The notes under the pieces were generated by a model. It had not been told where the DNA came from. It saw only the letters and a list, made by a program, of their open reading frames with translations, and searched no databases. From Octopus vulgaris (Eukaryota), in the NCBI GenBank assembly GCA_951406725.2, contig OX597822.1, forward strand, positions 56,978,001-57,042,000: DNA of 64,000 nt. The letters are read 5' to 3'. Shown piece by piece: positions 943 to 49,599 of this stretch. The stretch's first letter is position 1; the number at the start of each line of letters is the position of its first letter. The translations under genes and the position numbers were made by a program.

Positions 943-1018
<76 letters not shown>

Positions 1019-2780: not shown

Positions 2781-2793
2781 CCTTCTATAAAAT

Positions 2794-2839
<46 letters not shown>

Positions 2840-2844
<5 letters not shown>

Positions 2845-8036: not shown

Positions 8037-8158
8037 AACATCAAATTCATTTTCGCCATAGTTCAATAAATAAAAACTTAAGAGATTTTAAAATTTGCAA
8101 ATTTTAAAATCTCTTAAGTTTTTATTTATTGAACTATGGCGAAAATGAATTTGATGTT
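8037..8158. repeat. Perfect spacer-less palindrome, 61-bp arms
   Basis: aacatcaaattc...aaatttg|caaattt...gaatttgatgtt, centre at 8097/8098. Confidence 0.9.
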
Positions 8159-11419: not shown

Positions 11420-12565
11420 TTAGTGATTTGATGACGCAGGTATTATTTCGATCTCATATTCTACATCTTATTGATTTCAAACTATGACACCGGATATCTG
11501 TATCTGTATGTGCAGACATTGTCGCCATAATACTGTCGCACAACACAGAAGTCGAGGTTGTCGGCAACTTTCTAAAGGAATACGAGACCATGACGGCAGT
11601 AAACATTAACCTAAGATATTAGTGGGTTTGTAACGCGGTTATCATACTATCGGGCAACTTTGTTAGGTGGCAGACGGTTGGAAAGGGCTAAATTGACTGG
11701 GATCTGGTTCAGTTTATACATCCAAGATATAAACGAAATTTTGGATAGGGTAGTCAGACCCACTCCGAAATGGAAGCTATATTGAACGATTGTGCTTTAC
11801 TTTAGTTTTCGACTGACGTGGAGTAGCGTCTATTCTTCCGTATTTTGAGGAAAAGACGCCTTCCACTGATCATGTTGCCCATCCGCAGCCAGTACATTCT
11901 GTGGGTGTTCAATATGCCGTGGATGATGACGTACAGATTTCCGCGAAGCTATAGCATCTGCAGAGATTCCTTGATAAGCTGATGTGGTCAACGGTTTTCA
12001 GGTACGTTTTCTCACTGCTCGATAAACTGTTAAAAGCCGAGTACATTGTACAGATCACCTGCAACCGCCTTTAGTCCACGAAGAGCTTGTAGTTTTTACC
12101 TGTCTGATGGTTATGATTAAAGAAGTTATGTGGTAGACACATCCGAAATTATTGAAGCCCAACATTTTCGTTTTCTACCAAGCTCCCAGTAACTTTCGTG
12201 GTAGGAAGCGAGAAATAAATGTACTTCCCACCCACTGACTGTAAATAGATGTGAATAAAAATGAATGTGCTTTCCACACACCGACTATAAATTTGTTGAG
12301 AATTTGGTGAGAGTAACGAAGAAGTCTCGAGTGAGGCGTCTATTGCTCTAGAACGGCTGGTGAAGGAGTAATTGAAGTGGTCAGGATAATTTGGGGTCTA
12401 TGGCTTTCTTTTATCGTAGCTAGGAGGTCAAACATCAATTGTAATTTGTTATGACTATTTAACTTTTATTTTTAGTGTATCTAAAGCTCCAGTATGTTTT
12501 ATCTCGTTCTCTTCTCTGTAATGTGCCCAATGTCTTTCAACCCTTATGGCTAATAAATTTATTTG
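11420..12565 (+). mobile_element. Old degenerate Tx1-like ORF2 3' part and 3' end
   Basis: CADIVAII / LKEYETMTAVNIN match YADDVTVVV / LNQYEAVTGAKIN of the intact ORF2; 3' end cccttatggctaataaa...ttg-(att)n matches the young element end. Confidence 0.65.
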
Positions 12566-12583
12566 ATTATAATTATTATTATT

Positions 12584-12990
12584 CAGTAGTCTTATTTTTA
12601 TCACATGATTTCACTACACAACCGAGCGCAGCTCTTTGTATCTTTTTGTAACTTGAGTACGTGCTGTGGTTTGCTGCGGTGCCTTTATTTTCACTGTATT
12701 GAAAGTGATTTACGTAGGATATGTACGGTGCCTAGTAGTGCTATTTTCTGTATGTCATATACATTCGTAAGTCCTGATGTCTTGGTTATGTATTTGTCTG
12801 AATGATTTGAATCATGCCTAATGCACCTATTATTATAGAGATTGTTTCTGATTTTAGGCTCCACATTCCAGATCCTTGTATTTTGAGAGTTTCTCCAATT
12901 CTTTTAGAGATATATTGTCATCTCTTGGTATTGATACATCGATTAAAAGGCTTTTTCCTTGGTGATCCCTGACAACTATATATAGCCTTT
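12584..12990 (-). mobile_element. 5'-truncated R4/Dong fragment (RLE domain plus 3' UTR) inside (ATT)n
   Basis: IVVRDHQGKSLLIDVSIPRDDNISLKELEKLSKYKDLE; 3' end cagtagtc matches the element at 22002. Confidence 0.85.
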
Positions 12991-19034: not shown

Positions 19035-19436
19035 ACAACTATATTAATTATTACTGTTTATTACATGCCACACCAAACCACACCACATCATACCATATCA
19101 CACCACCCCGCACACACTAGCACACACCACTTCCCAGCATTCACACCATCATTCACACACCCACACATTACAGATGCATCTGTAATGTGTGGGTGTGTGA
19201 ATGATGGTGTGAATGCTGGGAAGTGGTATGTGCTACATCTGTAATGTGTGGGTGTGTGAATGATGGTGTGAATGCTGGGAAGTGGTATGTGCTACATCTG
19301 TAATGTGTGGGTGTGTGAATGATGGTGTGAATGCTGGGAAGTGGTATGTGCTAGTGTGTGCGGGGTTGTGTGATATGGTATGATGTGGTGTGGTTTGGTG
19401 TGGCATGTAATAAACAGTAATAATTAATATAGTTGT
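19035..19436. repeat. Spacer-less palindrome (142-bp left arm) whose right arm contains a 59-bp unit three times
   Basis: Centre cagatg|catctg at 19176/19177; units 19177-19235, 19236-19294, 19295-19353. Confidence 0.9.
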
Positions 19437-21590: not shown

Positions 21591-21811
21591 ATAGGGCTTA
21601 TGCTTTCTTCTGCCCCAATAAGAGTTGGTGAGAATACTCATATACAATGACTTACATAAAGAAACTTGAGTCACACTAGTACTGGTCGTTTAATCCGACC
21701 GCAGTTCTTGACTTGAATATTTTCAGTTCTATATTTAAGAGATGAGGAATTATGTACATTATTTACATTATTTACAATTGACGGATATTTGTCCTCATCT
21801 TGTTTGTTGTT

Positions 21812-21857
21812 AACACAACGTTTCGGCTGTTATACCCTCCAGTCCTCATCAGGTGTC
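21812..21857 (-). ncRNA. Type I minimal hammerhead ribozyme
   Basis: Minus strand: GACAC-CTGATGA-GGaCTG(gagggtataa)CAGCC-GAAAC-GTT-GTGTT; palindromic AACGTT stem III. Confidence 0.75.
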
Positions 21858-21909
21858 TTGGGGAAATTTCTAACCTGGGTTCTCATTCCTAAGGTATTTT
21901 TCTATGTTG

Positions 21910-22001
<92 letters not shown>

Positions 22002-22004
<3 letters not shown>

Positions 22005-24548
22005 TAGTTTTATTTTTATAGCGTGCTTTCACTTCATTACCGAGCGCAGCTCTGTGTGCCTTGGGTATGTGTTGTGATTTGTTGTGATGCTCTGATGGTT
22101 ATTGTATGGAAAGTGTTCTGCGTAGGATGTGTGCAGTGCCTAGTAGTGCAATTTTCTGTATGTTATATGTGTTTGTAAGTCCTGGTGTTTTTGTTATGTA
22201 TTTGTCTGAATATTTTTTTATCATGCCTAATGCACCTACTATGATAGGAATTGTTTCTGTTTTCAGGTTCCACATTCTAGTTACCTCTATTTCCAGGTCT
22301 TTGTATTTTGAGAGTTTCTCCATTTCTTTTAGAGACACGTTGTCATCTGCCGGTATTGATACATCAATTAGAAAACATTTTTTTCTTCATGATCTCTGAC
22401 AACTATATCTGGTCTGTTGGCCTTAATTTCTCTATCTGTGTGTATCGGCATATCCCAGAGTATGGTTGCTTTCTCGTTTTCTGTGACCTTTTCTGGTGTG
22501 TGCCTATACCATCTTTTTTCTGTTGTTATTCCATAATGTTGGCATAGCTTCCAATGTATGTAGGTTCCAACTCTGTCATGTCTGTGAATATATTCCTTCT
22601 TAGCCAGGACTGGGCAGCTAGAGATAATATGATTTATTGTTTCTTGTCCATCTCCACATATTCTGCAGTTACTTGTAATATTTCTTTTCATTACATGTTT
22701 TTGGTAATTTCTGGTGGGGAGGCTTTGGTCTTGTGCTGCAATTAAAAATCCCTCTGTTTCTGCTTTGAGTCCTGAGCTTCTCAACCATTGCTGGGATTTT
22801 TCTTTGTCTATTTCTTTTGCGTTTAGTTTAGTGCAGTATTTACCATGAAGGGGCTTTTCTTGCCATCGTTTTATCATGGTTCGTTGCTGTTCTATTTTTA
22901 GTTTGGATTTCATTTGTTTTATAGCTTTTGTTGTTCCTTCATCATCTTCTTCTTCTTCTTTGTGTTTATTAGGTGGTATGATTTCTTGTTTGTATTTGTC
23001 AGCTTCCTTAAATACTGAGAACAGTTTTTTGTTTTGCTCGTGTTTTGCTGCTATCTGGATCAGTTTTCCTTCCTTCTGAAGTAGGTATTTTTGCAGTCCT
23101 ATGGTGGTTATTTTATAGTAGTTTTCCAGCTGTATAAGGCCTCTACCACCTTCTATACGTTGTATATATAGTCTTTCTATGTCAGATTTTGGGTGATGCA
23201 TCCTAGATCCTGTCATTATTTTTCTTGTTTTCCTATCTATTTTGGACAGTTCATTTCGTGTCCAGTTAAGGATATTGTAGCTGTAACTTATAACTGGGAC
23301 AGCTAAAGTGTTGATACCTATTATCTTGTTTTTAGCATTGAGCTCTGTTTTTAGTATTGATCTAACTCGTCTATAATATTCTTTTTTTATTTTCTCTTTC
23401 ATTTGTGTGTGTTGTGTCTTATCTAGTTCATGGATTCCTAAGTATTTGTAAGTTTGGCTTTGGTCTAATTCTTTTATTTCATTGGTTTTATCTAGTGTGA
23501 TGTTGTTACTCTTAACTAGTTTTCCTCTTTTCAGGGTTACTTTGGCGCATTTTTCTAATCCAAATTTCATATCTATTTCTTTGGTAAATCCATGAACTGT
23601 CTTTAATAGTGTTTCCAGCTGTTTGTCATTTGCAGCGTATAGTCTTAGGTCATCCATATATAAAAGGTGGCTGATCGTTTTGCCGTAACATTTATATCCG
23701 CATCCAGTTCTATTTAGCATATCAGATAGAGGTGACAGTGCCAAGCAGAAAAGGAGTGGAGAGAGCGTGTCTCCCTGGAATATTCCTCTTCTAATGGGGA
23801 TGTCTTTGGTTTTCATGAGTCCCTCTTTTGTTTGGAGGTGTAGGACTGTTTGCCATTTATTCATAGAGTGCTCTATGAATTTTATGATTGTTGGTGCTAC
23901 TTTGTTAATGGCTAGTGTTTCGAGGATCCATGTGTGGGGGATGCTATCAAACGCCTTTTTGTAGTCAATCCAGGCCATACTGAGGCCTTTCTTCTTTCTG
24001 TGGCTGTCTTCAGTTACGGCTTTATTAATCATTAGTTGATCTTTACAGCCATATGAGCCTTTGCGGCATCCTTTCTGCTCTTCTGGGAACAGTTTGTTTT
24101 CGTCCAGGTGCTTGTTCAGCCTTTGCGATATCACTGCAGTAAATGCCTTGAACATAGTAGGGAGGCAGGTTATTGGTCTGTAGTTTTCTGGTTTTGTTGT
24201 TTCATTTGATTTGGGAATTAAGATGGTTTTCCCCTTCGTGAGCCATTCAGGCATTGTCTCTGGCTCTGCTAGTATGCTGTTAAAGTTTTCAGCCAGCTTT
24301 TTGTGCATTCCTGTTAGATATTTCAACCAGAAGTTGGGGATCTTGTCATGCCCAGGTGCCTTCCAGTTGCTTAGTTTTTGCAGTGCCTGGGTGACCTCTT
24401 CAGTTGTTATGGGGGTCCAAAGTTGTTCAGATGCCGAGTTTGTTATTTTCATACTCCTTTTTTTTGGCTGTTCGTTCGCCGACCATATTTCTCTCCATGT
24501 TCGTTCGCCGACCATATTTCTCTCCATTACCATTACCATATTTCTCTC

Positions 24549-24550
<2 letters not shown>
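22002..24550 (-). mobile_element. Young 5'-truncated R4/Dong-clade non-LTR retrotransposon inserted in (TAA)n
   Basis: RT, CCHC and RLE ORF; flanked on both sides by (ATT)n on the + strand. Confidence 0.9.
22099..24498 (-). CDS. R4/Dong reverse transcriptase with CCHC finger and restriction-like endonuclease; 5'-truncated, one frameshift in a T7 run at 22378-22384
   Basis: NWKAPGHD, NYRPITCL, WIDYKKAFDS, GIFQGDTLSP, LYMDDL, YKYLG, CRICGDGQETINHIISSC, RHD, NRPDIVV, then KLSKYKDL in the next frame; poly-Ile N-terminus of the called ORF is microsatellite. Confidence 0.85.
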
Positions 24551-24606
<56 letters not shown>

Positions 24607-24622
24607 ATTATTATTATTATTA

Positions 24623-24698
<76 letters not shown>

Positions 24699-24714
24699 CA
24701 TTATTATTATTATT

Positions 24715-24853
24715 CAGGTCACTGCCTAGAACCGAACTCGGAATCTTGGGGTTAGTAGCCCACGCTCTTAACCACTATGCCATATGCCGTGGCATAGTGG
24801 TTAAGAACGCGGGCTGCTAACCCCAACGTTCCGAGTTCGGTTCTAGGCAGTGA

Positions 24854-24857
<4 letters not shown>
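24715..24857. promoter_or_regulatory. Two divergently oriented tRNA-derived heads (Pol III A and B boxes); 68-bp inverted arms with a 7-nt spacer
   Basis: TGGCATAGTGGTTAAG (A box), ggg-CTGCTAA-ccc (tRNA-Ser(GCT)-like anticodon arm), GAGTTCGGTTC (B box); 5 mismatches between arms; no full cloverleaf. Confidence 0.75.
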
Positions 24858-24947
<90 letters not shown>

Positions 24948-25231
24948 CAATTCTTTTTTATTGGCCACAAGGGCTGACACGCATGATTACATAAAGGGAC
25001 AGGACAGGACGAAAGGTTACAAAGGGTTTTGTCCGTTTGTTAAAAAATCCGTGTAAAAAAAAAACTTTAAAACAATGATTATTAAAACAATGAAAAACTC
25101 CCAAAAGGGGGAGACGTCTCGAAATGTTCCCGGTGGAAAAAACCCTACAAAAGCCAACGGGAGCCTGGTCAAAAAAAGGGGGTGTAGAGAGTCCCCTTTC
25201 TTCTCCTTTTACATTACCTTTTTCTTTGAAA

Positions 25232-28200
25232 TCACAGGCGAAACCTGAGAACTGGTCCATTTATACAGGCCAGTCTCGCACAATTCACCCACCTTTCATA
25301 AAACTTGCTATCGGACAGCACTTTCCTCTCTAACCTCATCTTCCTTTTCAAGTGAAACTTGAAAAAGTTGATGAGGCCTTGACCAAAGAGGAAAGTGTCT
25401 GTCTTTAGCCCTTTTAAACGAGTCCACCACACGACCTCTTTCGCCACAGCCACTAGGCACAAGAAAACGGCCTCGCCCTCCTTGTTAAAGGAGGTCGGCG
25501 GGGCAATCTTCACTATGGATTCGGCCGATAGTCGGATCCGTCCTACACGTGACAGTAGCTGTTCGACATAAACCCATATTTCAGCAATACTCGGGCACTG
25601 GACGAGTGCGTGCAGAACGGTTTCGTCGTCCTGGCAACACCTCGGGCAGGCCCGGCTGACGGCACTTCCGTGCCGGTAGAGTTTATCTCGAACAGGCAGA
25701 GCCCCTCGGTAGCACTGCCAGGCGAGAGACCTCTGGAAATTATCCATCGGCCCCGGCCCGAAAGTCCTCCCGAACAGACTGCTCAGTTCGTCGTCTTCAA
25801 CGCCTAGAGTTTCCCCGAGAACGTCGTCGCATTTTTCCTCCACTAACCCTCTATAGAACGCTAGAGTGGAGCTGTAACCGACCGCATTGCCCGCCTGGTG
25901 GAGGGCGGAGAGGGCTTGACGGCACTCGAGGTGCCAAGCGCCCTTTCTCGGTCTACGTTTGATCCAGGTCTGCAGCTCCGTCAAAGAGACGAGCTGCGGA
26001 AAATCGCGTCTGACAAAAGACGACCACACCTGTTCACCGTCTAGGAAGCGCTTGAGATGCCGCAGCCTGAGCGCATGTCTGCGCAACAGCAACCACGGCA
26101 TTCCAAGGCCTCCGTTCAGCGGTCGTTGACAGCAGATGGATCGCCTGACCAGTGGCACCTGACCCTTCCACAAAAAGTCGAAGAGCAGACGTACCAGCTT
26201 GGCCAACCAGCGGTTGGGACAAGGGACGACGGTCAAGCGGTAATAGATGACGGATGCGATGTACGCATTCGCCACCTCCGCTCGACCTTTCAGGGACAGC
26301 TTCCTCTCGGCCCATTTCTGGGTGAGACGTGCCACTCTGCTCGTCACCTCTTCCCAGTTCTTATCCACCTGGAGGTCCGGACCGAACCAGACCCCGAGCA
26401 GTTTAACGGGTCCGTCTGTCCAGCGCCCTACGACGCTGTTGGACGGCATGGGCTTGCCTCTCCAGGTGCCCAGTTGCAAGCCCACAGACTTTTCCGCGTT
26501 AATCTTTGCCCCTGTCACCGCTTCGTACTGGTTTAGCGTCTCGCCAATCAGGCTAATGTGCCTGTGGCTCGACACCACCACGGTGACGTCGTCGGCATAA
26601 GCAGACACGCTGTTTCCGCCTCCTAGATCGCGCGGGATGCCCCTCAAAGCCTCCAACTTGCGCAGTAATGGCTCGAGAGTCAAAATGTACAAGAGGGAGG
26701 AGAGATGGCATCCTTGGCGGACCGAACGCGAGATGTCGAACGGTTCCGAACGGTGACCGTTCACCCGTATCACCGAGCAGATGTTGCTGTATAAAGCAGC
26801 GATCCACCCGCGGAAGACTGGACCGAAGCCGGCTGCCTTGAGGACAGCTGCCAGGTACTGATGGTCGACCCTATCGAAGGCTTTACTCTGATCCAAGTTG
26901 ATCAAAGCCCCACCCGCGCCAGCGTCGTTACCCACCCTCTCTATGATGTAGCGCATGAGATGGAGGTTGTCGTGTATCGACCTGGTCGGCACGGCGCATG
27001 TCTGCGTCCCGCCGACCAGCTTGTCCACGACAAGCGCCAATCTCTTGGCTAGCACCTTGGCCAAAATCTTCAACTCTGCATTGAGCAGAGTGATGGGCCG
27101 GAAATTCCCTATAACGTCCCCCTTGTTTGGGTCCTTCTTTAGCAAAGCCACCACCCCTCGACAGACAAAAGCAGGAATTCTCCCGTTTTGCTGCCAGTTG
27201 CAGTAGACGTTTGCCAACAGGTCCGCAAACAAGTCTGGCATCGAAAAGTAAAGCTCGTAGGGCAGACCATCCAAACCCGGCGATCTACCTCTCGTGCAAC
27301 TCTTCATCGCTTCCTGTACTTCCCAGGCAGATATCGGTCCTTCGCAGCACTCCGCCTCGCTGTCCGAGAGTTGCGGCAGTCCGTCCAGGTACACACCGAA
27401 GTCTGTACCGTTGGTGTCCGTTCCACCGCTCGTCCCAAACAGTTGAGCAAAGTGCCGCTGAAGCACCGTACACATCTGCTTCGGTTGGGTAACCTCGCGC
27501 CCGTTCTGGTCCACCAAAGACCGAATGGTTGCTTTGTTGCCTCGCTTCGCCTCCGCCACGCGGGCCCATCGAGCGGCTCTAGTCCCCTCCCCGTTTAGCG
27601 AACGTGCCTTAGCTCTGACAACGCAGCCTTCGTGTTTGGCGTCGAAGTGTTGGTCGAGGGCCAACCTTGCCGCCAACACGTCGGTCGCGATGCCAGTGTC
27701 AAGAGCCTCGTCTAGTTTCTTAACTAAATCCCGCTCTCTCTTCCTACGTTCAATAGCTAGAGTCTTACTATACCTAATCGACTCTACTCTAATTGCTCTC
27801 TTGAGGGCAAACCACCAGTTGTTGTTGATGATTGCCCCCGTGAGCGCCCGCTTAACTAGTAAACTAATCCGGTCTCTGTAAGCTTTGCACGCCGTTAACG
27901 ACGCGTTCAGCTTCCAGTAGCCGGGTCCCTGTCTATGTAGCCTATCTAAGTCGACCGTACAGATCACTAATTTGTGGTCCGTATATTCGACTAGGTGGAA
28001 TTGTGGACACCCTACGCTGTCCTTATCCGCTGGCCTACAAAACACTCTATCTAAGTACGATCTAGACGACCCGATGCGGTTTGTCCAAGTCCACATTGGC
28101 ACATTCGGGTTGTCTAGTCGAAACCTGTCGGACAGCTGAAAGCGGCCGAGTAGGTTGGCGAGGCTCTTGCACCCTCCCCCTCTCCTAACAGACGCTCCCC

Positions 28201-28666
28201 TGCCCACCCGATCGAAACGTTCGTCTAAGACAGCGTTCCAATCCCCAACTAGTACTAGAGTGCGTGACGTTCCCAGGAAAACTTCCAGACGTTTGAAATA
28301 ATCCGACTGCCCTGCTCCTGTCGGAGCGTAGGCAGCCAGCAGTCTGAAAGCACCGCCGTCACTACCGTCGACGTCGAGGACCACCAACTTACCTTCCGGA
28401 TCCAAGAAGACTGTCCTTATTTTCAGGTCCAGGCCCTTCCGAAACAACACCGCAGTACCACCACCGCCCGCTCCCGGCCGACACGGAGATAGAAATATCT
28501 CGTATCCGCCGAAAAGGGCTGCGAGTTCCTGCGGGTCGGAGAGCCTGGTTTCACTGATGGCTGCTACATCCACATCATGAAACCTCAGGTCGTTTAACAG
28601 GTGACCCTGTTTCCAAGGTGACCCGAGGCCTCTCACATTCAAGCAACCGATTCTAAGATTTGCCAT
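25232..28666 (-). CDS. Tx1-like ORF2, 1144 aa: APE endonuclease, RT, C-terminal CCHC
   Basis: CLNVRGL, ISETR, GDWN, YLDRVF, TDH; SPGLDG, NFRPITLLN, LDQSKAFDRV, RQGCHLS, AYADDV; CPRC..ETVLHALVQC. Confidence 0.95.
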   Translation of the reverse strand: MANLRIGCLNVRGLGSPWKQGHLLNDLRFHDVDVAAISETRLSDPQELAALFGGYEIFLSPCRPGAGGGGTAVLFRKGLDLKIRTVFLDPEGKLVVLDVDGSDGGAFRLLAAYAPTGAGQSDYFKRLEVFLGTSRTLVLVGDWNAVLDERFDRVGRGASVRRGGGCKSLANLLGRFQLSDRFRLDNPNVPMWTWTNRIGSSRSYLDRVFCRPADKDSVGCPQFHLVEYTDHKLVICTVDLDRLHRQGPGYWKLNASLTACKAYRDRISLLVKRALTGAIINNNWWFALKRAIRVESIRYSKTLAIERRKRERDLVKKLDEALDTGIATDVLAARLALDQHFDAKHEGCVVRAKARSLNGEGTRAARWARVAEAKRGNKATIRSLVDQNGREVTQPKQMCTVLQRHFAQLFGTSGGTDTNGTDFGVYLDGLPQLSDSEAECCEGPISAWEVQEAMKSCTRGRSPGLDGLPYELYFSMPDLFADLLANVYCNWQQNGRIPAFVCRGVVALLKKDPNKGDVIGNFRPITLLNAELKILAKVLAKRLALVVDKLVGGTQTCAVPTRSIHDNLHLMRYIIERVGNDAGAGGALINLDQSKAFDRVDHQYLAAVLKAAGFGPVFRGWIAALYSNICSVIRVNGHRSEPFDISRSVRQGCHLSSLLYILTLEPLLRKLEALRGIPRDLGGGNSVSAYADDVTVVVSSHRHISLIGETLNQYEAVTGAKINAEKSVGLQLGTWRGKPMPSNSVVGRWTDGPVKLLGVWFGPDLQVDKNWEEVTSRVARLTQKWAERKLSLKGRAEVANAYIASVIYYRLTVVPCPNRWLAKLVRLLFDFLWKGQVPLVRRSICCQRPLNGGLGMPWLLLRRHALRLRHLKRFLDGEQVWSSFVRRDFPQLVSLTELQTWIKRRPRKGAWHLECRQALSALHQAGNAVGYSSTLAFYRGLVEEKCDDVLGETLGVEDDELSSLFGRTFGPGPMDNFQRSLAWQCYRGALPVRDKLYRHGSAVSRACPRCCQDDETVLHALVQCPSIAEIWVYVEQLLSRVGRIRLSAESIVKIAPPTSFNKEGEAVFLCLVAVAKEVVWWTRLKGLKTDTFLFGQGLINFFKFHLKRKMRLERKVLSDSKFYERWVNCARLACINGPVLRFRL

Positions 28667-28704
28667 GTCTCAAAGTAGGGGGAAAAAAAGGAGAAAAAAA
28701 GGCT

Positions 28705-29509
28705 CTACTTACTGTTGTTGGTGGTGGGGGTGGCTCCCTTGTGCTTTTGCACGGGTGCTTCCACAATGTTTTTATAAAGTTTCTTCGAGAAACTTTTCCC
28801 TAGCGATCCCACATCGTTAGGGAATATTTGTTTGATTTCATCATATGATTTTGCATTTATTTTTATTGTGAGAATGTGTGCTGGTGGTGTGTTTTGTGTT
28901 GGTATGATGAAATCGGTTATATTTGTACTAGTTTTGTTTTTTAAGTACTCCACTAGTTTTTGGTTCTTTGTGTTTATTGATGTAATTGTGTCTGTGTGTG
29001 TTTGTGTGTGTGGCAGTGGCAGTAGTGGTGTCGAAAGTGTTGTTGTTGTTTGTTGTTGTGAGTGTGTGTTGTTGTTGTTGTTGTTGTTGATGTTGGGAAG
29101 CACTATTTGTTCGTGCTTCCCCTGTAAATCTTTTTGTTTCTTCCTCCTTTTCTTCTTTGGAGGCACTATACTCCATTCTCCTTTGTTGGAATCAGAGCTC
29201 GCACAATCCGAGATCTCTTCATCCGGCAAAGGAATGGTTGAGGGTCTGCTTCAGTAGCAGGACGAAAAGTTTCTGGTTCCACCGGTATCGGTGGTGCCGC
29301 TGCTCCTGTTACTGTTGATGTCGCTGCTGTCGACCTTCGAGGTACTGGTGTCGGTGTTGGTTTGGTGGTGGTTGTCGGTGTTGGTTTGGTGGTGGTTGTT
29401 GTTGTTGGAGGTGGTGTTGCTCGTCTTGGTGCTGGTGTTGGTGATGGTGTTGGTGGTGTGGCAGCCTTTGGTGTTTCTTGCTGTTTTTGTTGTTTCTGTT
29501 GTTGTTGCT

Positions 29510-29547
<38 letters not shown>

Positions 29548-30571
29548 GCTGCTGCCTCTTGCTGAAAGCCTCCATCCTCTTTTTGTGAATGGGACAGTCC
29601 CTCTTTAAGTGGCTTTCGCTGCTGCAGAGAAAGCATTTTGGCTTTCGCCCCTCCACAGCAACGTTTAGCCTAGTGCCGTCCGGCAAACTTACGAAATCAG
29701 GGACTTTACTTATATTCTCTTGCTGAATTTGCGCAAGAAGCAGCACTCCCATCCCCAACCAGTTTTTCGCCCTCACTCTCCTGACATCTAGAATGGTGGT
29801 AGTGTCCTCTATATCATAGAGGACAGCTGCCACCAGCCATGACATATTTAATTCAGGGGGGACGAGGTCGATTTTTATTTTTGTAACTCTTCGCCCGAGG
29901 TGGGTTGGAATTAGTAACAAATTCTCAGTTTGCAAGGGCGAAATGGCGTTCGCCCTTGCCAGCTCCTCTGTTGGGAAGCGAACCTCCACGGTTCCAAAAC
30001 GCTTCCCCTTGGTTACGTAGCTCTTTTGGGCCCAAATGGGCTTTAGAGCTATCTCCAACTGTTGGGGTGTGGCATTTGTTATTCTTTTTAGTTTTCTGTC
30101 GAAAACTTTGTAAATTATTGTTTGCTTGTTGGTGCTTTCAATCACCTCTTGTGGAGTATTGAGGAAGATACCATTGCCATCCTTCCTTAACAATTCCTTC
30201 GCTCTTTTCACATCTTCTAGAGTTATCTTAACTTCCTCCGAAATTTGCTTCGCAGCAGAAGCAAAATTGTTGGAAGTTTTTTCTTTTATCTCCGTGTCAA
30301 TGTTTGTGATGATTTTTGTATTTGTTTTTTCTCCCTCCTCCTTCCTTACCAAAGCATTGGGTGAAGGCAGAGGGGGAAAATCAAGAATTACGTCGAACGC
30401 GACGTCATGACTTGCATTTTCCTTTTGAACCGAGCGCGTGCTCTGCGGTTCGGAAGGAGAATCTTTGTTGCCTTTTAAGGCGTGAAGTGGGTGTTTTGTA
30501 CGAGTTGTGCGTGTTTGCGGAGGGAGTGTATTTTGAAGGAAGGAACAGCCAACTGTTCGCTTCATAGCCAT
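28705..30571 (-). pseudogene. Tx1-like ORF1 copy A (RRM-like region, CCHC knuckle, polyQ and Thr/Pro tracts), two 1-nt frameshifts (~29510, ~29243)
   Basis: ATG at 30571 (MAMKRTVG); CFLCSSESHLKRDC; continues in ORFs 29166-29636 and 28705-29229, collinear with copy B. Confidence 0.8.
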
Positions 30572-31109
30572 GTTTTTTCTTGTTGTAATATTCAAAATGT
30601 TGAAAAATGTCAAATGTTCAAAATTTTCAAACGCAATTTCACCCCGAATGGGGCAAAATTTCGCCCAACCGACGAGCTCCGCAAGAAGCCGGTCGGTTTG
30701 GCTACAGAAATATTAAAAAATATTCAAACCTATTAATAGATTTCCAATGAAATTGGTGTCAAATTCACGGAGCTGATTCACGTACGTCTAACGGCGTCGG
30801 AAGGAATAATAATAATAATAATCAATTCTTTTCTTTTTTATTGGCCACAAGGGCTGACACGCATGATTACATAAAGGGACAAGACAGGACGAAAGGTTAC
30901 AAAGGGTTTTGTCCGTTTTTTTAAAAACATCGTGTAAAAATCTTTATAACAACTTATAAAATTCAACAATGAAAAACTCCCAAAAGGGGGAGACGTCTCG
31001 AAAGGTTCCTGGTGGAAAAAACCCTACAAAAGCCAACGGGAGCCTGGTCAAAAAAGGGGGTGTAGAGAGTCCCCTTTCTTCTCCTTTTACATTACCTTTT
31101 TCTTTGAAA

Positions 31110-34100
31110 TCACAGGCGAAACCTGAGAACTGGTCCATTTATACAGGCCAGTCTCGCACAATTCACCCACCTTTCATAAAACTTGCTATCGGACAGCACT
31201 TTCCTCTCTAACCTCATCTTCCTTTTCAAGTGAAACTTGAAAAAGTTGATGAGGCCTTGACCAAAGAGGAAAGTGTCTGACTTTAGCCCTTTCAAACGAG
31301 TCCACCACACGACTTCTTTCGCCACAGCCACAAGGCACAAGAAAACGGCCTCGCCCTCCTTGTTAAAGGAGGTCGGCGGGGCAATCTTCACTATGGATTC
31401 GGCCGATAGTCGGATCCGTCCTACACGTGACAGTAGCTGTTCGACATAAACCCATATTTCAGCAATACTCGGGCACTGGACGAGTGCGTGCAGAACGGTT
31501 TCGTCGTCCTGGCAACACCTCGGGCAGGCCCGGCTGACGGCACTTCCGTGCCGGTAGAGTTTATCTCGAACAGGCAGAGCCCCTCGGTAGCACTGCCAGG
31601 CGAGAGACCTCTGGAAATTATCCATCGGCCCCGGCCCGAAAGTCCTCCCGAACAGACCGCTCAGTTCGTCGTCTTCAACGCCTAGAGTTTCCCCGAGAAC
31701 GTCGTCGCATTTTTCCTCCACTAACCCTCTATAGAACGCTAGAGTGGAGCTGTAACCGACCGCATTGCCCGCCTGGTGGAGGGCGGAGAGGGCTTGACGG
31801 CACTCGAGGTGCCAAGCGCCCTTTCTCGGTCTACGTTTGATCCAGGTCTGCAGCTCCGTCAAAGAGACGAGCTGCGGAAAATCGCGTCTGACAAAAGACG
31901 ACCACACCTGTTCACCGTCTAGGAAGCGCTTGAGATGCCGCAGCCTGAGCGCATGTCTGCGCAACAGCAACCACGGCATTCCAAGGCCTCCGTTCAGCGG
32001 TCGTTGACAGCAGATGGATCGCCTGACCAGTGGCACCTGACCCTTCCACAAAAAGTCGAAGAGCAGGTGTACCAGCTTGGCCAACCAGCGGTCGGGACAA
32101 GGGACGACGGTCAAGCGGTAATAGATGACGGATGCGATGTACGCATTCGCCACCTCCGCTCGACCTTTCAGGGACAGCTTCCTCTCGGCCCATTTCTGGG
32201 TGAGACGTGCCACCCTGCTCGTCACCTCTTCCCAGTTCTTATCCACCTGGAGGTCCGGACCGAACCAGACCCCGAGCAGTTTAACGGGTCCGTCTGTCCA
32301 GCGCCCTACGACGCTGTTGGACGGCATGGGCTTGCCTCTCCAGGTGCCCAGTTGCAAGCCCACAGACTTTTCCGCGTTAATCTTTGCCCCTGTCACCGCT
32401 TCGTACTGGTTTAGCGTCTCGCCAATCAGGCCAATGTGCCTGTGGCTCGACACCACCACGGTGACGTCGTCGGCATAAGCAGACACGCTGTTTCCGCCTC
32501 CTAGATCGCGCGGGATGCCCCTCAAAGCCTCCAACTTGCGCAGTAATGGCTCGAGAGTCAAAATGTACAAGAGGGAGGAGAGAGGGCATCCTTGGCGGAC
32601 CGAACGCGAGATGTCGAACGGTTCCGAAAGGTGACCGTTCACCCGTATCACCGAGCAGATGTTGCTGTATAAAGCAGCGATCCACCCGCGGAAGACTGGA
32701 CCGAAGCCGGCTGCCTTGAGGACAGCTGCCAGGTACCGATGGTCGACCCTATCGAAGGCTTTACTCTGATCCAAGTTGATCAAAGCCCCACCCGCGCCAG
32801 CGTCGTTACCCACCCTCTCTATGATGTAGCGCATGAGATGGAGGTTGTCGTGTATCGACCTGGTCGGCACGGCGCATGTCTGCGTCCCGCCGACCAGCTT
32901 GTCCACGACAAGCGCCAATCTCTTGGCTAGCACCTTGGCCAAAATCTTCAACTCTGCATTGAGCAGAGTGATGGGCCGGAAATTGCCTATAACGTCCCCC
33001 TTGTTTGGGTCCTTCTTTAGCAAAGCCACCACCCCTCGACAGACAAAAGCAGGAATTCTTCCGTTTTGCTGCCAGTTGCAGTAGACGTTTGCCAACAGGT
33101 CCGCAAACAAGTCTGGCATTGAAAAGTAAAGCTCGTAGGGCAGACCATCCAAACCCGGCGATCTACCTCTCGTGCAACTCTTCATCGCTTCCTGTACTTC
33201 CCAGGCAGATATCGGTCCTTCGCAGCACTCTGCCTCGCTGTCCGAGAGTTGCGGCAGTCCGTCCAGGTACACACCGAAGTCTGTACCGTTGGTGTCCGTT
33301 CCACCGCTCGTCCCAAACAGTTGAGCAAAGTGCCGCTGAAGTACCGTACACATCTGCTTCGGTTGGGTAACCTCGCGCCCGTTCTGGTCCACCAAAGACC
33401 GAATGGTTGCTCTGTTGCCTCGCTTCGCCTCCGCCACGCGGGCCCATCGAGCGGCTCTAGTCCCCTCCCCGCTTAGCGAACGTGCCTTAGCTCTGACAAC
33501 GCAGCCTTCGTGTTTGGCGTCGAAGTGTTGGTCGAGGGCCAACCTTGCCGCCAACACGTCGGTCGCGATGCCAGTGTCAAGAGCCTCGTCTAGTTTCTTA
33601 ACTAAATCCCGCTCTCTCTTCCTACGTTCAATAGCTAGAGTCTTACTATACCTAATCGACTCTACTCTAATTGCTCTCTTGAGGGCAAACCACCAGTTGT
33701 TGTTGATGATTGCCCCCGTGAGCGCCCGCTTAACTAGTAAACTAATCCGGTCTCTGTAAGCTTTGCACGCCGTTAACGACGCGTTCAGCTTCCAGTAGCC
33801 GGGTCCCTGTCTATGTAGCCTATCTAAGTCGACCGTACAGATCACTAATTTGTGGTCCGTATATTCGACTAGGTGGAATTGTGGACACCCTACGCTGTCC
33901 TTATCCGCTGGCCTACAAAACACTCTATCTAAGTACGATCTAGACGACCCGATGCGGTTTGTCCAAGTCCACATTGGCACATTCGGGTTGTCTAGTCGAA
34001 ACCTGTCGGACAGCTGAAAGCGGCCGAGTAGGTTGGCGAGGCTCTTGCACCCACCCCCTCTCCTAACAGACGCTCCCCTGCCCACCCGATCGAAACGTTC

Positions 34101-34544
34101 GTCTAAGACAGCGTTCCAATCCCCAACTAGTACTAGAGTGCGTGACGTTCCCAGGAAAACTTCCAGACGTTTGAAATAATCCGACTGCCCTGCTCCTGTC
34201 GGAGCGTAGGCAGCCAGCAGTCTGAAAGCACCGCCGTCACTACCGTCGACGTCGAGGACCACCAACTTACCTTCCGGATCCAAGAAGACTGTTCTTATTT
34301 TCAGGTCCAGGCCCTTCCGAAACAACACCGCAGTACCACCACCGCCCGCTCCCGGCCGACACGGAGATAGAAATATCTCGTATCCGCCGAAAAGGGCTGC
34401 GAGTTCCTGCGGGTCGGAGAGCCTGGTTTCACTGATGGCTGCTATATCCACATCATGAAACCTCAGGTCGTTTAACAGGTGACCCTGTTTCCAAGGTGAC
34501 CCGAGGCCTCTCACATTCAAGCAACCGATTCTAAGATTTGCCAT
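31110..34544 (-). CDS. Tx1-like ORF2, 1144 aa: APE, RT, CCHC; canonical RQGCPLS motif
   Basis: Same motifs as copy A; about 11 aa differences by eye. Confidence 0.95.
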   Translation of the reverse strand: MANLRIGCLNVRGLGSPWKQGHLLNDLRFHDVDIAAISETRLSDPQELAALFGGYEIFLSPCRPGAGGGGTAVLFRKGLDLKIRTVFLDPEGKLVVLDVDGSDGGAFRLLAAYAPTGAGQSDYFKRLEVFLGTSRTLVLVGDWNAVLDERFDRVGRGASVRRGGGCKSLANLLGRFQLSDRFRLDNPNVPMWTWTNRIGSSRSYLDRVFCRPADKDSVGCPQFHLVEYTDHKLVICTVDLDRLHRQGPGYWKLNASLTACKAYRDRISLLVKRALTGAIINNNWWFALKRAIRVESIRYSKTLAIERRKRERDLVKKLDEALDTGIATDVLAARLALDQHFDAKHEGCVVRAKARSLSGEGTRAARWARVAEAKRGNRATIRSLVDQNGREVTQPKQMCTVLQRHFAQLFGTSGGTDTNGTDFGVYLDGLPQLSDSEAECCEGPISAWEVQEAMKSCTRGRSPGLDGLPYELYFSMPDLFADLLANVYCNWQQNGRIPAFVCRGVVALLKKDPNKGDVIGNFRPITLLNAELKILAKVLAKRLALVVDKLVGGTQTCAVPTRSIHDNLHLMRYIIERVGNDAGAGGALINLDQSKAFDRVDHRYLAAVLKAAGFGPVFRGWIAALYSNICSVIRVNGHLSEPFDISRSVRQGCPLSSLLYILTLEPLLRKLEALRGIPRDLGGGNSVSAYADDVTVVVSSHRHIGLIGETLNQYEAVTGAKINAEKSVGLQLGTWRGKPMPSNSVVGRWTDGPVKLLGVWFGPDLQVDKNWEEVTSRVARLTQKWAERKLSLKGRAEVANAYIASVIYYRLTVVPCPDRWLAKLVHLLFDFLWKGQVPLVRRSICCQRPLNGGLGMPWLLLRRHALRLRHLKRFLDGEQVWSSFVRRDFPQLVSLTELQTWIKRRPRKGAWHLECRQALSALHQAGNAVGYSSTLAFYRGLVEEKCDDVLGETLGVEDDELSGLFGRTFGPGPMDNFQRSLAWQCYRGALPVRDKLYRHGSAVSRACPRCCQDDETVLHALVQCPSIAEIWVYVEQLLSRVGRIRLSAESIVKIAPPTSFNKEGEAVFLCLVAVAKEVVWWTRLKGLKSDTFLFGQGLINFFKFHLKRKMRLERKVLSDSKFYERWVNCARLACINGPVLRFRL

Positions 34545-34582
34545 GTCTCAAGAATTAGGGAAAAAAAAGGAGAAAAAAGGCT

Positions 34583-36464
34583 CTACTTACTGTTGTTGGT
34601 GGTGGGGGTGGCTCCCTTGTGCTTTTGCACGGGTGCTTCAATAATATTTTTGTAAAGTTTCTGAGAGAAACTTTTCCCTAACGATCCCACATCGTTAGGG
34701 AATATTTGTTTTATTTCATTGTACACTGTTTTGTTTATTTTTATTGTGAGAATGTGTGCTGGTGGTGTGTTGTGTGTAGGTATTATGAAATCTGTAATGT
34801 TTGTGCTTGTTTTGTTTTTCAAATACTCAACCAGTTCCTGGTTTCTTGTATTCACTGCTGTAATCGTGTCTGTAATTGTGTCTGTGTTTGTTTGTGTCTG
34901 TGGTAGTGGCAGTAGTGGTGTCGAAAGTGTTGTTGTTGTTGTTTGTTGTTGTGAGTGTGTGTTGTTGTTGATGTTGTTGTTGATGTTGGGAAGTACTATT
35001 TGTTCGTGCTTCCCCTGTAAAACTTTTTGTTTTTTCCTCCTTTTCTTTTTTGGAGGTACTATATTCCATTCTCCTTTGTTGGAATCCGAGCTCGCACAAT
35101 CCGAGATCTCTTCATCCGGCAAAGGAATGGTTGAGGGGTCTGCTTCAGTAGCAGGACGAAAAGTTTTAGGTTCCGCCGGTATCGGTGGTGCCGCTGCTCC
35201 TGTTACTGTTGATGTCGCTGCTGTCGACCTTCGAGGTACTGGTGTCGGTGTTGGTTTGGTGGTGGTTGTCGGTGTTGGTTTGGTGGTGGTTGTTGTTGTT
35301 GGAGGTGGTGTTGTTCGTCTTGGTGCTGGTGTTGGTGATGGTGTTGGTGGTGTGGCAGCCTTTGGTTTTTCTTGCTGTTTTTGTTGTTTCTGTTGTTGTT
35401 GCTTGTGTTGTTGTTGTTGTTGTTGTTGTTGCTGCTGCCTCTTGCTATACTCCTCCATTCTCTTTTTTTGAATGGGGCAGTCCCTTTTTAGGTGGCTTTC
35501 GCTACTGCAGAGGAAACATTTTGGCTTTCGCCCCTCTACAATAACATTTAGCCTGGTCCCATCCAGCAAGATGACAAAGTCAGGTATGGCATTGATGTTT
35601 TCCTGCTGGATCTGTACCAGCAGTTGAATACCCATGCCTGACCAGTTCTTTTCTCGTACCCTCCGAACATTCAGAATAGTGGCAGTGTCCTCTATGCCAT
35701 AGAGGACAGCCGCCACTAGCCATGAGATTTTCTGTTCGGGGGTATTGTGCTTATGGTTATTTTTTGTACCTTACGCCCGAGGTACGTCGGGACGAGGAAC
35801 AAATGTTCATTTTGCAAGGGCGAAATGGCGTTTGCCCTTGCAAGCTCCTCTGTTGGGAAGCGAACCTCCACGGTTCCAAATCGCTTCCCTCTTGTCACAT
35901 AGCTCTTCTGGCCCCAAATGGGCTTCAGAGCCATCTCCAACTGTTGTGGTGTGGCGTTAAACAATCTTTTAGTTTTCTTTTCGAAGACTTTATAAAAGAT
36001 TGTTCTTTTGCTTGTTTCTTGTGTGAGTTGTTGAGGTGTGTTGAGGAAAACACTGTTCCCCTCCTTTCTCAACAAATCTTGTGCCATTTTTATGTCCTCC
36101 ATTGTAATTTCTACATCTTCCGAAATTTGCTTCGCAGCAGAAGCAAAATCGTTAGAAGCTTTTACAGTTTTTTGTTGGTTCTTGTCTGTGTTTGTGTCTG
36201 TTATAATTTTCTTTACCTCCCCCTTCGGTACAGCATCACTTGTTGAAGGCAGAGGGGGGAAATCAAGAGTGACGTCGAACGCGACGTCCTGGCATGCATT
36301 CTCCTTTTGAACCGAGCGCGTGCTCTCCGGTTCGGAAGGAGGAGCTTTGTTGCCTTTTACGGCCTGAAATGGGTTGTACGTAACCCGTGACGTTATTTTT
36401 TTTTGTTCTTGTAGGGGGGTGTTGCAAGAAGGAGGGAAGAGCCAGCAGCTCGTTTTAGTGCCAT
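34583..36464 (-). pseudogene. Tx1-like ORF1 copy B, frameshifts in homopolymer runs (~36400, ~35740)
   Basis: Probable ATG at 36464 (MALKRAAG vs MAMKRTVG in A); ORFs 35716-36564 and 34583-35716 collinear with copy A; CFLCSSESHLKRDC. Confidence 0.75.
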
Positions 36465-36697
36465 TTTGTAATGTGTGTGTGCAAAAAAATGTCAATTTCA
36501 AAAGGATAGACAGTAATTTCACCCCGAATGGGGCAAAATTTCGCCCAACCGACGAGCTCCGCAAGAAGCCGGTCGGTTTGGCTACAAAAATATTAAAAAA
36601 TATTCAAGCTTATTAAAAAATTTCCAACAAAATTGGCACAAAACTCACAGAGCTGATTCACGTACGTCCATCGGCGTCGGAAGGAATAATAATAATG

Positions 36698-36757
<60 letters not shown>

Positions 36758-36804
36758 TCAAAAAATACCTTAGGAATGAGAACCCAGGTTCGAAATTTCC
36801 CCAA

Positions 36805-36850
36805 GACACCGGATGAAATTTGGAGGGTATATCAGCTGAAACGTTATGTT
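36805..36850 (+). ncRNA. Mutated hammerhead (partner of 21812-21857), probably inactive
   Basis: GACAC-CGGATGA-aatttggagggtatatcagct-GAAAC-GTT-aTGTT; core U4 changed to G. Confidence 0.55.
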
Positions 36851-37239
36851 AACAACAAAGAAGATGAGGTCAAATATCCGTCAATTGTAAATAAAGTAAA
36901 TGATGTTGAATATTTTCGCCATCAGGAGGACGAAAATCGAAATTGACGTCGACATGAGTTAAACACAAAACGTAAACTGTCAGTTCAATTACAATCTAAT
37001 ATTTTGACCAACATACTAACCTAACGATTCTGATAATCTACCGCCTTACCAATAAAATGGGTAAATTCATAACAAGGTCTGGAATAGGTCTGCTATAATT
37101 AGCCTTAAATCCTAGACAAATTATTGTAACATAGCGTATAAGAAATAATGTGTAACTAACGAATACACATTCTTATACATAGACGTGCAAGCGCACATGC
37201 ATTTTAAGTCATTATTGTATTTGACAAATTTTTATTGAA

Positions 37240-43336: not shown

Positions 43337-43675
43337 CTTAGGCTTACGAGAGAGGGATGACCTCCCTTTGCAAATTCCATAAGGGCACAGATAGTGTGCT
43401 TAAAACCAGCTGGAGACGATGATCTCCTAGGGCTAAAAGCTACAGTAACACCTACCCTTTGTGGTTAGCCATATTGAGATGGCTATCATACTTTATATAT
43501 ATATATATATGTCTGTATGAGTTAGCGGTTAAAAAACCATCTAAAGGATATTAAATATCCAATACACTACTGGATGTGTACCTACGTATTTTAACCAAGT
43601 GCTTACTATTGCATGGCAATACCGCAATTGAATGCAAGGTATGGGTGGGGGTAAATTGGAAATTTACCCAGGATT

Positions 43676-43830
43676 TATAAGGCAAAAAAGAAAATGGAGA
43701 AGGTAGGCAATCGACAAACATCAGCCAGTAAACATTAGCCAGTAATCAATTAATGAATAGATATAATTGATTGTTTACTGGCTGTTGTTTGTCGATTGTA
43801 TATCCTCTCCATTTTCTTATTTGCCTTATA
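43676..43830. repeat. Imperfect inverted repeat, ~60-bp arms
   Basis: tataaggcaaa...cagccagtaaaca / tgtttactggctg...tttgccttata. Confidence 0.8.
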
Positions 43831-44419
43831 TATATATATATACATGTATATACGATGGACTTCTTTCAGTTTCCGTCAACCAAAGTCATTCAAAAGGCTT
43901 TGACGAACCGGGACTATAATAGGAAACGCCGTGGGACTCGACCTAAGACCATGTAGCAAGCTTCTTAACCACATAGTATACTGGCACTTACATTTACTGA
44001 TATTTAGTTCTCTTATAGCGTGTCAAAAGTCAATGGAAATGTGGAAAAAGGAAGCAACCGCATATAATTAAAGATATGTTAATCGAATACCACTAGGGCA
44101 CAATGGACTTCAAGTTTAGACCTTTTGGGTCTCCATCTTGGTTGGGAATCGTGGAAAATCAGGCAGATGTATTGTCATGTCCGTTTGAATTTATTCAGTC
44201 AGGTATTTATTCGTAAGGATTTCAAGAGGCTTTGCCTAAACGAACTTCAGTACATAGCGCAGTGATGTACAACAATACATTGTGCTGAATGTTAAGACGA
44301 GTCGTACACCAGTGAAAATACATTATTTCTGGAATTTGTTTCTAGACCTCTGTTGGGGACTACAATTTGTGGGTCTTAAGTTAAATATCTGAAACCAGAA
44401 GCTCGGAGAAATAATTTTT

Positions 44420-49184: not shown

Positions 49185-49585
49185 AGACGGCACGCCAGCA
49201 GAATCGTTAGCACTCCGGACAAAATGCTTAACGGTATTTCGTCTGCCGCTACGTTCTGAGTTCAAATTCCGCCGAGGTCGACTGTGCCTTTCATCCTTTC
49301 GGTGTCGATTAAATAAGTACCAGTTACGTACTGGAGCCGATCTAATCGACTTAATCCGTTTGTCTGTCCTTGTTTGTCCTCTCTGTGTTTAGCCCCTAGT
49401 GGATAGTAAAATAGTAGGTATTTCGTCTGCCGCTACGTTCTGAATTCAAATTACGCCGAGGTCGACTTTGCTTTCTACTTTTTGGGGTCGATGAAATAAG
49501 TACCAGTAGACGATTGGGGCTGGTACAAGTGGCTCTCCTCTTGCCCACAAAATTTCAGGCCTTATACCTATAGCTGAAAGGATTA
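49185..49585 (+). mobile_element. Two adjacent tRNA-derived SINE copies (second lacks the 5' start)
   Basis: ggtatttcgtctgccgctacgttctga.ttcaaatt.cgccgaggtcgact occurs twice. Confidence 0.8.
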
Positions 49586-49599
49586 TTATTATTATTATT

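What the first reader, a model, noticed from the sequence alone, without database searches (positions are those of the whole stretch)
21713..36917. Palindromic tRNA-promoter + (AAT)n + hammerhead mobile element, delimited by a 12-bp TSD and split over 15 kb by nested LINEs
Seen: removing the Dong and two Tx1 insertions leaves TSD-[tail]-[hammerhead arm, minus]-(ATT)n-[tRNA head, minus]-7 nt-[tRNA head, plus]-(AAT)n-[hammerhead arm, plus]-TSD. The TSD TTGAATATTTTC lies at 21713-21724 and 36906-36917, and only the left arm has a ~30-nt extra tail. Known: inverted arrangement, one-sided tail and minimal type I hammerheads are PLE hallmarks; animal retrozymes are small hammerhead repeats thought to be PLE-mobilised; classical SINEs use LINE tails instead. 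Inference: a Pol III-driven, ribozyme-processed, PLE-mobilised SINE/retrozyme hybrid with a tRNA-Ser-like head and an internal microsatellite. Whether it is already catalogued needs a database search.
Basis: partly seen in the sequence, partly recalled or inferred. Interest (0 to 1): 0.85.

Follow-up and report, generated by a model that had tools for sequence, protein, structure and literature searches.

The report
Penelope retrotransposon with tRNA-derived promoter

Summary
The anatomy is real: duplicated target site, tailed left arm, two divergent tRNA-like heads, (AAT)n, untailed right arm, split by one R4/Dong and two Tx1-like LINEs. It is one copy of a large family (3,702 exact hammerhead-core matches, control 0). 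It is not an independent SINE/retrozyme hybrid. The unit is the pseudo-LTR of a Penelope/Poseidon-type element: the head follows an RT + GIY-YIG ORF 23 nt after its stop (28 of 30 loci), and the hammerhead arm plus tail is the coding start of that ORF, matching the N-terminus of an intact 847-aa homologue. In 39 of 46 inverted copies one arm ends at the tail and the other at the inner site, with 8-16-bp duplications. This fits priming from both target strands at the two start sites known in vitro. Ribozyme cleavage does not set the ends, and both window hammerheads are damaged. New: a tRNA-like A/B-box head inside a Penelope pseudo-LTR, copy ends piling up at its 5' edge, and no TTTT terminator on 2.7 kb of sense strand. 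Pol III transcription is inferred, not shown; a TATA-like box at -28 is a live Pol II rival. No intact ORF was seen.

The parts
21713..21724 (.). Left target-site duplication (C21724 probably also the element's terminal base)
21724..21754 (-). PLE tail (arm positions ~152-182), coding; present on this arm only
21724..21905 (-). Left arm = 19 nt of 5' UTR plus the first 163 nt of the Poseidon-type ORF (ATG at 21886; one stop in this copy)
21812..21857 (-). Minimal type I hammerhead, palindromic stem III; one unpaired position in stem II; predicted cut between 21817 and 21816
   Evidence: sequence
21906..22001 (-). (AAC/AAT)n of the left half, part left of the Dong insertion
22002..24549 (-). 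Nested 5'-truncated R4/Dong-type LINE (RT, CCHC, PD-type nuclease motif) in the microsatellite
24550..24714 (-). (AAT)n of the left half, part right of the Dong insertion
24715..24789 (-). tRNA-like head (A and B boxes) of the tailed half, reaching its 5' end at the joint
24790..24857 (+). tRNA-like head of the untailed half, starting at the A box
24858..24947 (+). (AAT)n of the right half, before the Tx1-like pair
24948..30804 (-). Nested Tx1/L1-like LINE a (APE + RT ORF2, 1145 aa)
30805..30822 (+). Short (AAT)n between the two Tx1-like copies
30823..36684 (-). Nested Tx1/L1-like LINE b (92.6% identical to a)
36685..36756 (+). (AAT)n of the right half, after the Tx1-like pair
36757..36905 (+). 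Right arm = ORF start (ATG at 36776), ending at the inner site (~position 150), no tail
36805..36850 (+). Hammerhead remnant with mutated core and broken stem II
36906..36917 (.). Right target-site duplication

Best explanation
The feature is one inverted, ORF-less insertion of a Penelope/Poseidon-type retrotransposon whose pseudo-LTR consists of a tRNA-like head, an (AAT)n tract and the hammerhead-bearing start of the element's own ORF; it was likely made by reverse transcription primed from both nicked target strands, likely on short RNAs started by the head acting as a Pol III promoter. Shown: the head follows the RT + GIY-YIG ORF; the arm is the ORF's coding start; inverted copies pair one tail end with one inner end and carry target duplications; LINEs later entered the (AAT)n. 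Inferred: the element's protein cuts both strands about 10 bp apart, starts one cDNA at the tail end and one at the inner site, and the two cDNAs join head to head through the self-complementary 5' leader or other microhomology; a tRNA-derived SINE once landed at the pseudo-LTR's start site and lets any copy with head and arm make a new short template. Hammerhead cleavage is not needed for insertion.
For: ORF end followed by head in 28 of 30 loci; near-full-length copy L282 runs tail, ORF, head, (AAT)n, arm, tail; 40 scored copies carry the tail-to-ORF junction at 86-100%. Arm frame of the window and the ORF start line up with the N-terminus of the intact 847-aa homologue P0005 (ORF start E 9e-31). 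39 of 46 inverted loci have one tail end and one inner end, 1 tail/tail, 1 inner/inner, 5 unclassified; duplication score >=8 in 29 of 39 against 1.1% of mismatched flank pairs. PMC11167929 (parts 1-2 of 4 read) shows a Poseidon protein cutting and extending both strands, starting at two sites that bound the tail, with the hammerhead at the ORF start and cleavage dispensable. About 60 of 90 listed sites that reach head position 1 do not continue into the ORF side (sorted by eye). No TTTT on the sense strand of L282 602-3339 (T 0.226; about 5 runs expected by hand) against 7 runs in 1,790 nt of a Neptune ORF, 7 in 2,760 nt of a Dong copy (same T content) and 8 in 1,710 nt of a Poseidon relative. 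The window's two halves share minority variants in heads and arms, as expected for one event.
Against: No transcription start or polymerase was observed. A TATAA overlapping the ORF stop lies 28 nt before head position 1, and relatives L291 and L292 have CCAAT + TATA at that place, so Pol II could give the same 5' edge. The leader hairpin could also stall RT on long RNA. The TTTT result was noticed post hoc, rests on one near-full-length copy plus partial, non-independent copies, and L257 has 2 private runs. The head scores only 17.3 bits on the tRNA model. No intact ORF among the 150 scored RT matches (longest open frame 569 aa). The window's right-arm peptide alone matches P0005 only weakly (E 0.10). 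16 of 30 'other' joints show short fold-back extensions, so snap-back also occurs.
Confidence: 0.7

Rival explanations
1. Same PLE and same insertion mechanism, but the head is a passenger: a Pol II promoter (TATA-like box at -28) starts RNA at head position 1, or RT stops at the leader hairpin of long RNA, and the short copies are ordinary 5'-truncated PLE products.
For: TATAA 28 nt before head position 1; CCAAT + TATA in the same place in relatives; smooth 3'-to-5' fall of depth along the ORF, typical of truncation; about a third of listed heads continue into the ORF side; the protein needs a translatable RNA.
Against: A and B boxes are intact and correctly spaced; TTTT is missing from the whole sense strand while equal-composition controls have it; copies that lost the ORF side have no TATA.
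Confidence: 0.3
2. The inversion arises from a single priming event followed by snap-back of the cDNA on its own 3' end, not from two primings.
For: 510 perfect palindromic centres; short fold-back extensions at 16 of 30 non-ORF, non-palindromic joints.
Against: In most inverted copies the two halves have different 5' extents with no shared axis (only 6 of 39 have both halves full; either half can be the longer, 17 vs 15); ORF pieces can lie on either half; the untailed end sits at a fixed inner site next to the duplication.
Confidence: 0.15
3. One reading: an independent SINE/retrozyme hybrid, processed by its ribozyme and borrowing a PLE.
For: Short head-(AAT)n-arm copies far outnumber ORF-bearing ones (depth gradient); a few halves start just after the predicted cut (5 of 11 partner arms starting beyond position 55 start at 91-96).
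Against: Head and arm are contiguous parts of the coding element; about 97 of 100 listed sites lacking the normal sequence before the cut are internal variants, mostly a 3-nt deletion of the cut triplet, not starts at the cut; copies are inverted and dispersed, not hammerhead-delimited tandems (3 of 87 loci have a second same-strand arm).
Confidence: 0.07

Closest known systems
Penelope/Poseidon-clade PLEs, e.g. Poseidon of Anolis (PMC11167929; PMC8557442; PMC4209133)
   Same: Single RT + C-terminal GIY-YIG ORF, pseudo-LTR overlapping the ORF start, minimal hammerhead there, 30-40-nt one-sided tail, inverted truncated 5' copy. Opposite-strand hammerhead pairs 100-700 bp apart were noted in Schistosoma (PMC4209133, part 1).
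   Different: The pseudo-LTR holds a tRNA-like A/B-box head and a microsatellite. The D. virilis promoter is described as an internal TATA-less LINE-like promoter (PMC2377424, abstract). Four relatives read here (L290, L292, L306, L360) and L291 show no such head.
Schistosoma Sm-alpha / Sj-alpha SINE-like repeats (as reviewed in PMC6765202, passages; primary paper not held)
   Same: Pol III-type promoter followed by a type I hammerhead in a short animal retroposon.
   Different: Described as non-coding repeats released from tandem transcripts by cleavage; here the unit is the terminal repeat of a coding PLE, inserts inverted, and cleavage does not set the ends.
TRIMp3: Cassandra, Helenus, Ajax (PMC10886601, passages)
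   Same: Small-RNA-derived Pol III promoter inside a terminal repeat, proposed to arise by SINE insertion.
   Different: Those are non-autonomous LTR elements with PBS/PPT, and the paper argues their autonomous partners must use Pol II and not share the repeat; here the coding element itself carries the head.
Non-autonomous Chlamys elements such as MRC1 (PMC8557442, passage)
   Same: Short copies sharing the 3' end of an autonomous PLE.
   Different: No tRNA head or hammerhead is described in the passages read.
Metazoan retrozymes (PMC7229834, abstract and passages)
   Same: Short, type I hammerhead, PLE-linked.
   Different: Tandem, hammerhead-delimited monomers and circular RNAs; not seen here.

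Membership tests
PLE, Penelope/Poseidon clade | One ORF with RT and C-terminal GIY-YIG nuclease | tested here: met
   RVT_1 hits; nuclease recognised by motif and by 52-69% identity to full homologues, Pfam itself silent on L254; all copies seen are broken
PLE, Penelope/Poseidon clade | Partial tandem forming pseudo-LTRs that overlap the ORF start | tested here: met
PLE, Penelope/Poseidon clade | Inverted 5'-truncated copy and 30-40-nt tail on one side | tested here: met
   46 of 87 loci inverted; 39 of 46 with one tail
PLE, Penelope/Poseidon clade | Minimal type I hammerhead with palindromic stem III | tested here: met
   core and stems present, 94.5% of cells paired in 10 copies, no significant covariation; activity not tested
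PLE, Penelope/Poseidon clade | No extra zinc-finger linker (against Neptune/Nematis) | tested here: met
   translations read by eye
PLE, Penelope/Poseidon clade | RT phylogeny within the clade | not tested
   no tree built
tRNA-SINE (SINE2) | tRNA-related head with A and B boxes | tested here: met
   weak covariance-model score
tRNA-SINE (SINE2) | Pol III transcription | not testable with these tools
   indirect only:
tRNA-SINE (SINE2) | Unit separate from its partner, sharing only a LINE-type 3' tail | tested here: not met
   whole unit, head included, is part of the coding PLE
Metazoan retrozyme | Tandem monomers delimited by hammerhead cleavage | tested here: not met
Metazoan retrozyme | Abundant linear and circular RNA monomers | tested here: inconclusive
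   reads on both strands, mostly running into unlike sequence
TRIMp3 (Cassandra/Helenus/Ajax) | True LTR pair with PBS and PPT, 4-5-bp TSD, no coding capacity | tested here: not met
   inverted PLE anatomy, 8-16-bp duplications, coding partner

The most novel reading that the evidence does not exclude
An autonomous, protein-coding retrotransposon transcribed by RNA polymerase III: a captured tRNA promoter in the pseudo-LTR drives the full 2.7-kb RT-endonuclease RNA (hence no TTTT terminator on the sense strand) and, from every short copy, a SINE-like RNA, so LINE and SINE are one element; its tens of thousands of inverted copies record twin priming at the two PLE start sites.
Probability: 0.25. 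Interest if true: 0.85.

Novelty: new variant of a known kind. Interest (0 to 1): 0.58.

Why it matters
How PLEs make inverted, one-tailed insertions is called unresolved in PMC8557442; the near-strict tail/inner pairing with target duplications gives genomic support for twin priming and a ready statistic. A tRNA promoter inside a coding PLE's terminal repeat would show a route by which a SINE-like family arises from its own autonomous element, and, if Pol III also makes the long RNA, a coding retroelement that breaks the Pol II rule stated for such partners. Practically, tens of thousands of copies would be mislabelled as SINEs or microsatellites, and their (AAT)n tracts are landing sites for Dong and Tx1-like LINEs.

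Tried and rejected
GIY-YIG family search found mainly Neptune-type PLEs with intact 781-aa ORFs; none of 30 loci or 20 wider stretches linked the arm to those ORFs, so they were rejected as partners. Rfam Hammerhead_1 search gave 6 other hammerheads, not this family. Single-strand folds do not recover the hammerhead as the minimum-energy form and z-scores are not significant. An intron in the tail was considered and dropped: the frame is open through the tail. No RNA holder was listed on record; raw RNA reads map to both strands equally and 76-82% run on into unlike sequence, so they say nothing on promoter, strand or cleavage. No solved PLE structure matched. P0005 found no relative in the first metagenome scan and the alignment none in viral contigs. 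tRNA hits beside relatives L292 and L354/L356 are unrelated neighbours; Rfam found no other in 36 of 79 relative loci scanned, an insensitive test since this family's own head scores below cut-off. Earlier scan notes held nothing. Ten paper searches found no description of a tRNA head in a PLE pseudo-LTR; Dfam, Repbase and SINEBase could not be searched, the 1994 octopus SINE paper, the 1998 Schistosoma paper and the 2015 octopus genome paper were not held or not read, and the repeat library of PMC13282606 lies outside its readable supplement, so the sequence may be catalogued. An empty-site allele could not be sought (no relatives held).
Full report
Observation. The 12-mer occurs only at 21713 and 36906. 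The arms are about 90% identical, the heads 93%, and only the left arm has the last ~30 nt. The inserts are an RT ORF with CCHC and PD-type nuclease motifs (R4/Dong type) and two tandem APE+RT LINEs, 92.6% identical, each with a 1145-aa ORF2; 'Tx1' rests on domain content and microsatellite targeting, not on a tree. The two halves share minority variants in both heads and both arms, which supports one event. The window lies in G000 (2.8 Gb, 227 contigs); size and repeat content suggest an octopus (inference).

It is a large family. The hammerhead-core pattern has 3,702 exact matches, reversed control 0. It matched 2 of about 33 arms in head-seeded loci and 5 of about 35 partner arms in pattern-seeded loci (counted by hand), which gives a rough 25,000-60,000 arms. 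Full arms differ from the family majority by about 4-5% (58 arms). Of 28 head-seeded loci other than the window's own, 25 have a co-oriented arm.

Insertion anatomy. I took the first 90 pattern matches on contig C1 (87 distinct loci; the seed arm must have an intact core). 46 are inverted within the 1.2-1.5 kb fetched on each side and 41 look solo, many with another element in the (AAT)n that may have pushed the partner out of view. Arm 3' ends are bimodal: position 176-182 (tail) or 135-158 (inner). Of 46 inverted loci, 39 pair one tail end with one inner end, 1 is tail/tail, 1 inner/inner and 5 have an unclassified end; 39 of 41 against an even chance gives p about 4e-10 (by hand). A direct repeat scoring 8 or more flanks 29 of these 39, against 1.1% of mismatched flank pairs; lengths run about 8-16 bp. 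Either half may be the longer (17 vs 15 reach the head's 5' end, 6 both, 13 neither). The window is a typical case: tail left, inner end right.

What the unit is. Several copies continue 5' of the head into a shared sequence. It encodes the end of an RT + GIY-YIG ORF. In 28 of 30 loci fetched with that ORF end the head follows 23 nt after the stop; the other two break off there. L282 holds nearly the whole element: inverted arm, tail, ORF, head, (AAT)n, arm, tail. The tail-to-ORF junction recurs in all 40 scored copies. The arm is coding: the window's left arm reads MRTQVRNFPKTPDEDWRV*QPKRCVNNKQDEDKYPSIVNNVNNVHNSSSLKYRT, the ORF goes on with VSFNRYGADIRLQW, and the intact 847-aa homologue P0005 begins with a like stretch (TPDDG, WPKRCVNN, SSLTFR, RYG; ORF start E 9e-31; the degraded right arm alone E 0.10). 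RT pieces hit RVT_1; Pfam does not call the nuclease. There is no Neptune-type zinc linker. None of the 150 scored RT matches has a full frame (longest 569 aa), so the family is probably inactive now. So head + (AAT)n + arm + tail is the pseudo-LTR of a Penelope/Poseidon-type PLE.

Mechanism. PMC11167929 (parts 1-2 of 4 read) reports that the Anolis Poseidon protein cuts and extends both DNA strands, starts reverse transcription at two internal sites that bound the tail, has its hammerhead at the ORF start and does not need cleavage. The pairing above is what two primings, one at each site on opposite strands of a staggered cut, would leave (inference). The tail is predicted to pair with the arm upstream, putting the inner site in the loop (z -1.5, not significant). 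The joint uses a self-complementary leader: 510 perfect palindromic centres exist, control 0, mostly AC/GT or AT at the axis. Snap-back also occurs (short fold-back extensions at 16 of 30 other joints), but cannot explain halves of unrelated extent.

The hammerhead. Core, stems I and II and a palindromic stem III are present; 94.5% of cells pair in 10 copies, without significant covariation. This is the minimal dimer-type motif of PMC4209133 (parts 1-2 read). It does not set copy ends: of the first 100 of 596 sites lacking the normal bases before the cut, about 97 are internal variants, mostly a 3-nt deletion of the cut triplet, and about 3 are foreign joints. A small excess of starts just after the cut (5 of 11 partner arms starting beyond position 55) may reflect minor cleavage. 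Both window copies are damaged.

The head. It has A and B boxes at tRNA spacing; Rfam aligns it to the tRNA model at 17.3 bits, below cut-off. The best matches among 35 distinct genomic tRNA sequences were Arg(TCG) and Arg(TCT); Ser(GCT), Asn and Arg(ACG) were not in the set, so the donor is open and the ACT/GCT loop does not establish Ser (no long variable arm). Among the first 100 of 1,610 matches reaching head position 1 (90 sites, sorted by eye), 30 continue into the ORF side, 30 are palindromic centres and 30 join something else; the pattern undercounts the last class. Position 1 lies 13 nt before the A box, a usual Pol III start distance (own knowledge). The sense strand of L282 has no TTTT over 602-3339, where about 5 runs are expected at T 0.226. 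Controls of equal T content have 7 runs in 1,790 nt (Neptune ORF) and 7 in 2,760 nt (Dong); a Poseidon relative has 8 in 1,710 nt. L254 has none in its element; L257 has two private ones. This is post hoc and rests on one near-full copy. Against Pol III: a TATAA lies 28 nt before position 1, relatives L291 and L292 have CCAAT + TATA at that place, and the leader hairpin could stall RT. RNA reads were uninformative.

Comparison. It meets the PLE tests run here and fails the SINE and retrozyme tests on independence and on cleavage-defined ends. It resembles Sm-alpha (Pol III promoter + hammerhead; PMC6765202 passages) and TRIMp3 (small-RNA promoter in a terminal repeat; PMC10886601 passages, which argue the autonomous partner must use Pol II and not share the repeat). 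Inversion and tail are known PLE traits (PMC8557442 passages). Five relatives read by eye lack the head. Ten searches of the held literature found no tRNA head in a PLE pseudo-LTR; repeat databases were not searchable and the library of PMC13282606 (parts 1-2 of 3 read, supplement searched) was out of reach, so the sequence may be catalogued.

Verdict. Real; a new variant of a known kind. Structure as a PLE pseudo-LTR about 0.9; twin priming about 0.8; Pol III for short copies about 0.55; Pol III for the coding RNA about 0.25. Interest 0.58.

Noticed in passing
window 24948-36684: Two full-length Tx1/L1-like LINEs in tandem in one (AAT)n, both with intact 1145-aa ORF2; ORF1 region open in one copy (467 aa) and split in the other.
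   Followed up: partly
L203:1430-4190; L035; window 22002-24549: The family's (AAT)n is a recurring landing site for Dong and Tx1-like LINEs; further Dong-like pieces at window 12559-12981 and 49582-51010.
   Followed up: partly
G000:C2:2734234-2735999: Array of about 215-bp period carrying the arm variant that lacks the 3-nt hammerhead cut triplet; the variant has several hundred exact matches genome-wide.
   Followed up: no
L091:1745-4087; L092; L067: A young Neptune-type PLE family with many intact 781-aa frames, an upstream ORF, and tandem repeats with TGACGTC motifs after the stop; no canonical hammerhead found by the pattern used.
   Followed up: partly
L187, L188, L191 (1501-1608); beside the arm in L028: A second repeated hammerhead family with a very long stem II insert, over the Rfam Hammerhead_1 cut-off.
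   Followed up: no
L284:3860-5490 (G000:C9, about 57 kb beyond the window's end): An inverted, ORF-bearing copy of the same family close to the window.
   Followed up: yes
window 1080-2799, 8037-8158, 19035-19436, 43673-43833: Other long palindromes or inverted repeats (596 bp at 94%, a perfect 122-bp palindrome, an inverted repeat with a 59-bp tandem).
   Followed up: no
window 24469-24527: A perfect 29-bp tandem duplication at the 5' joint of the truncated Dong copy.
   Followed up: no
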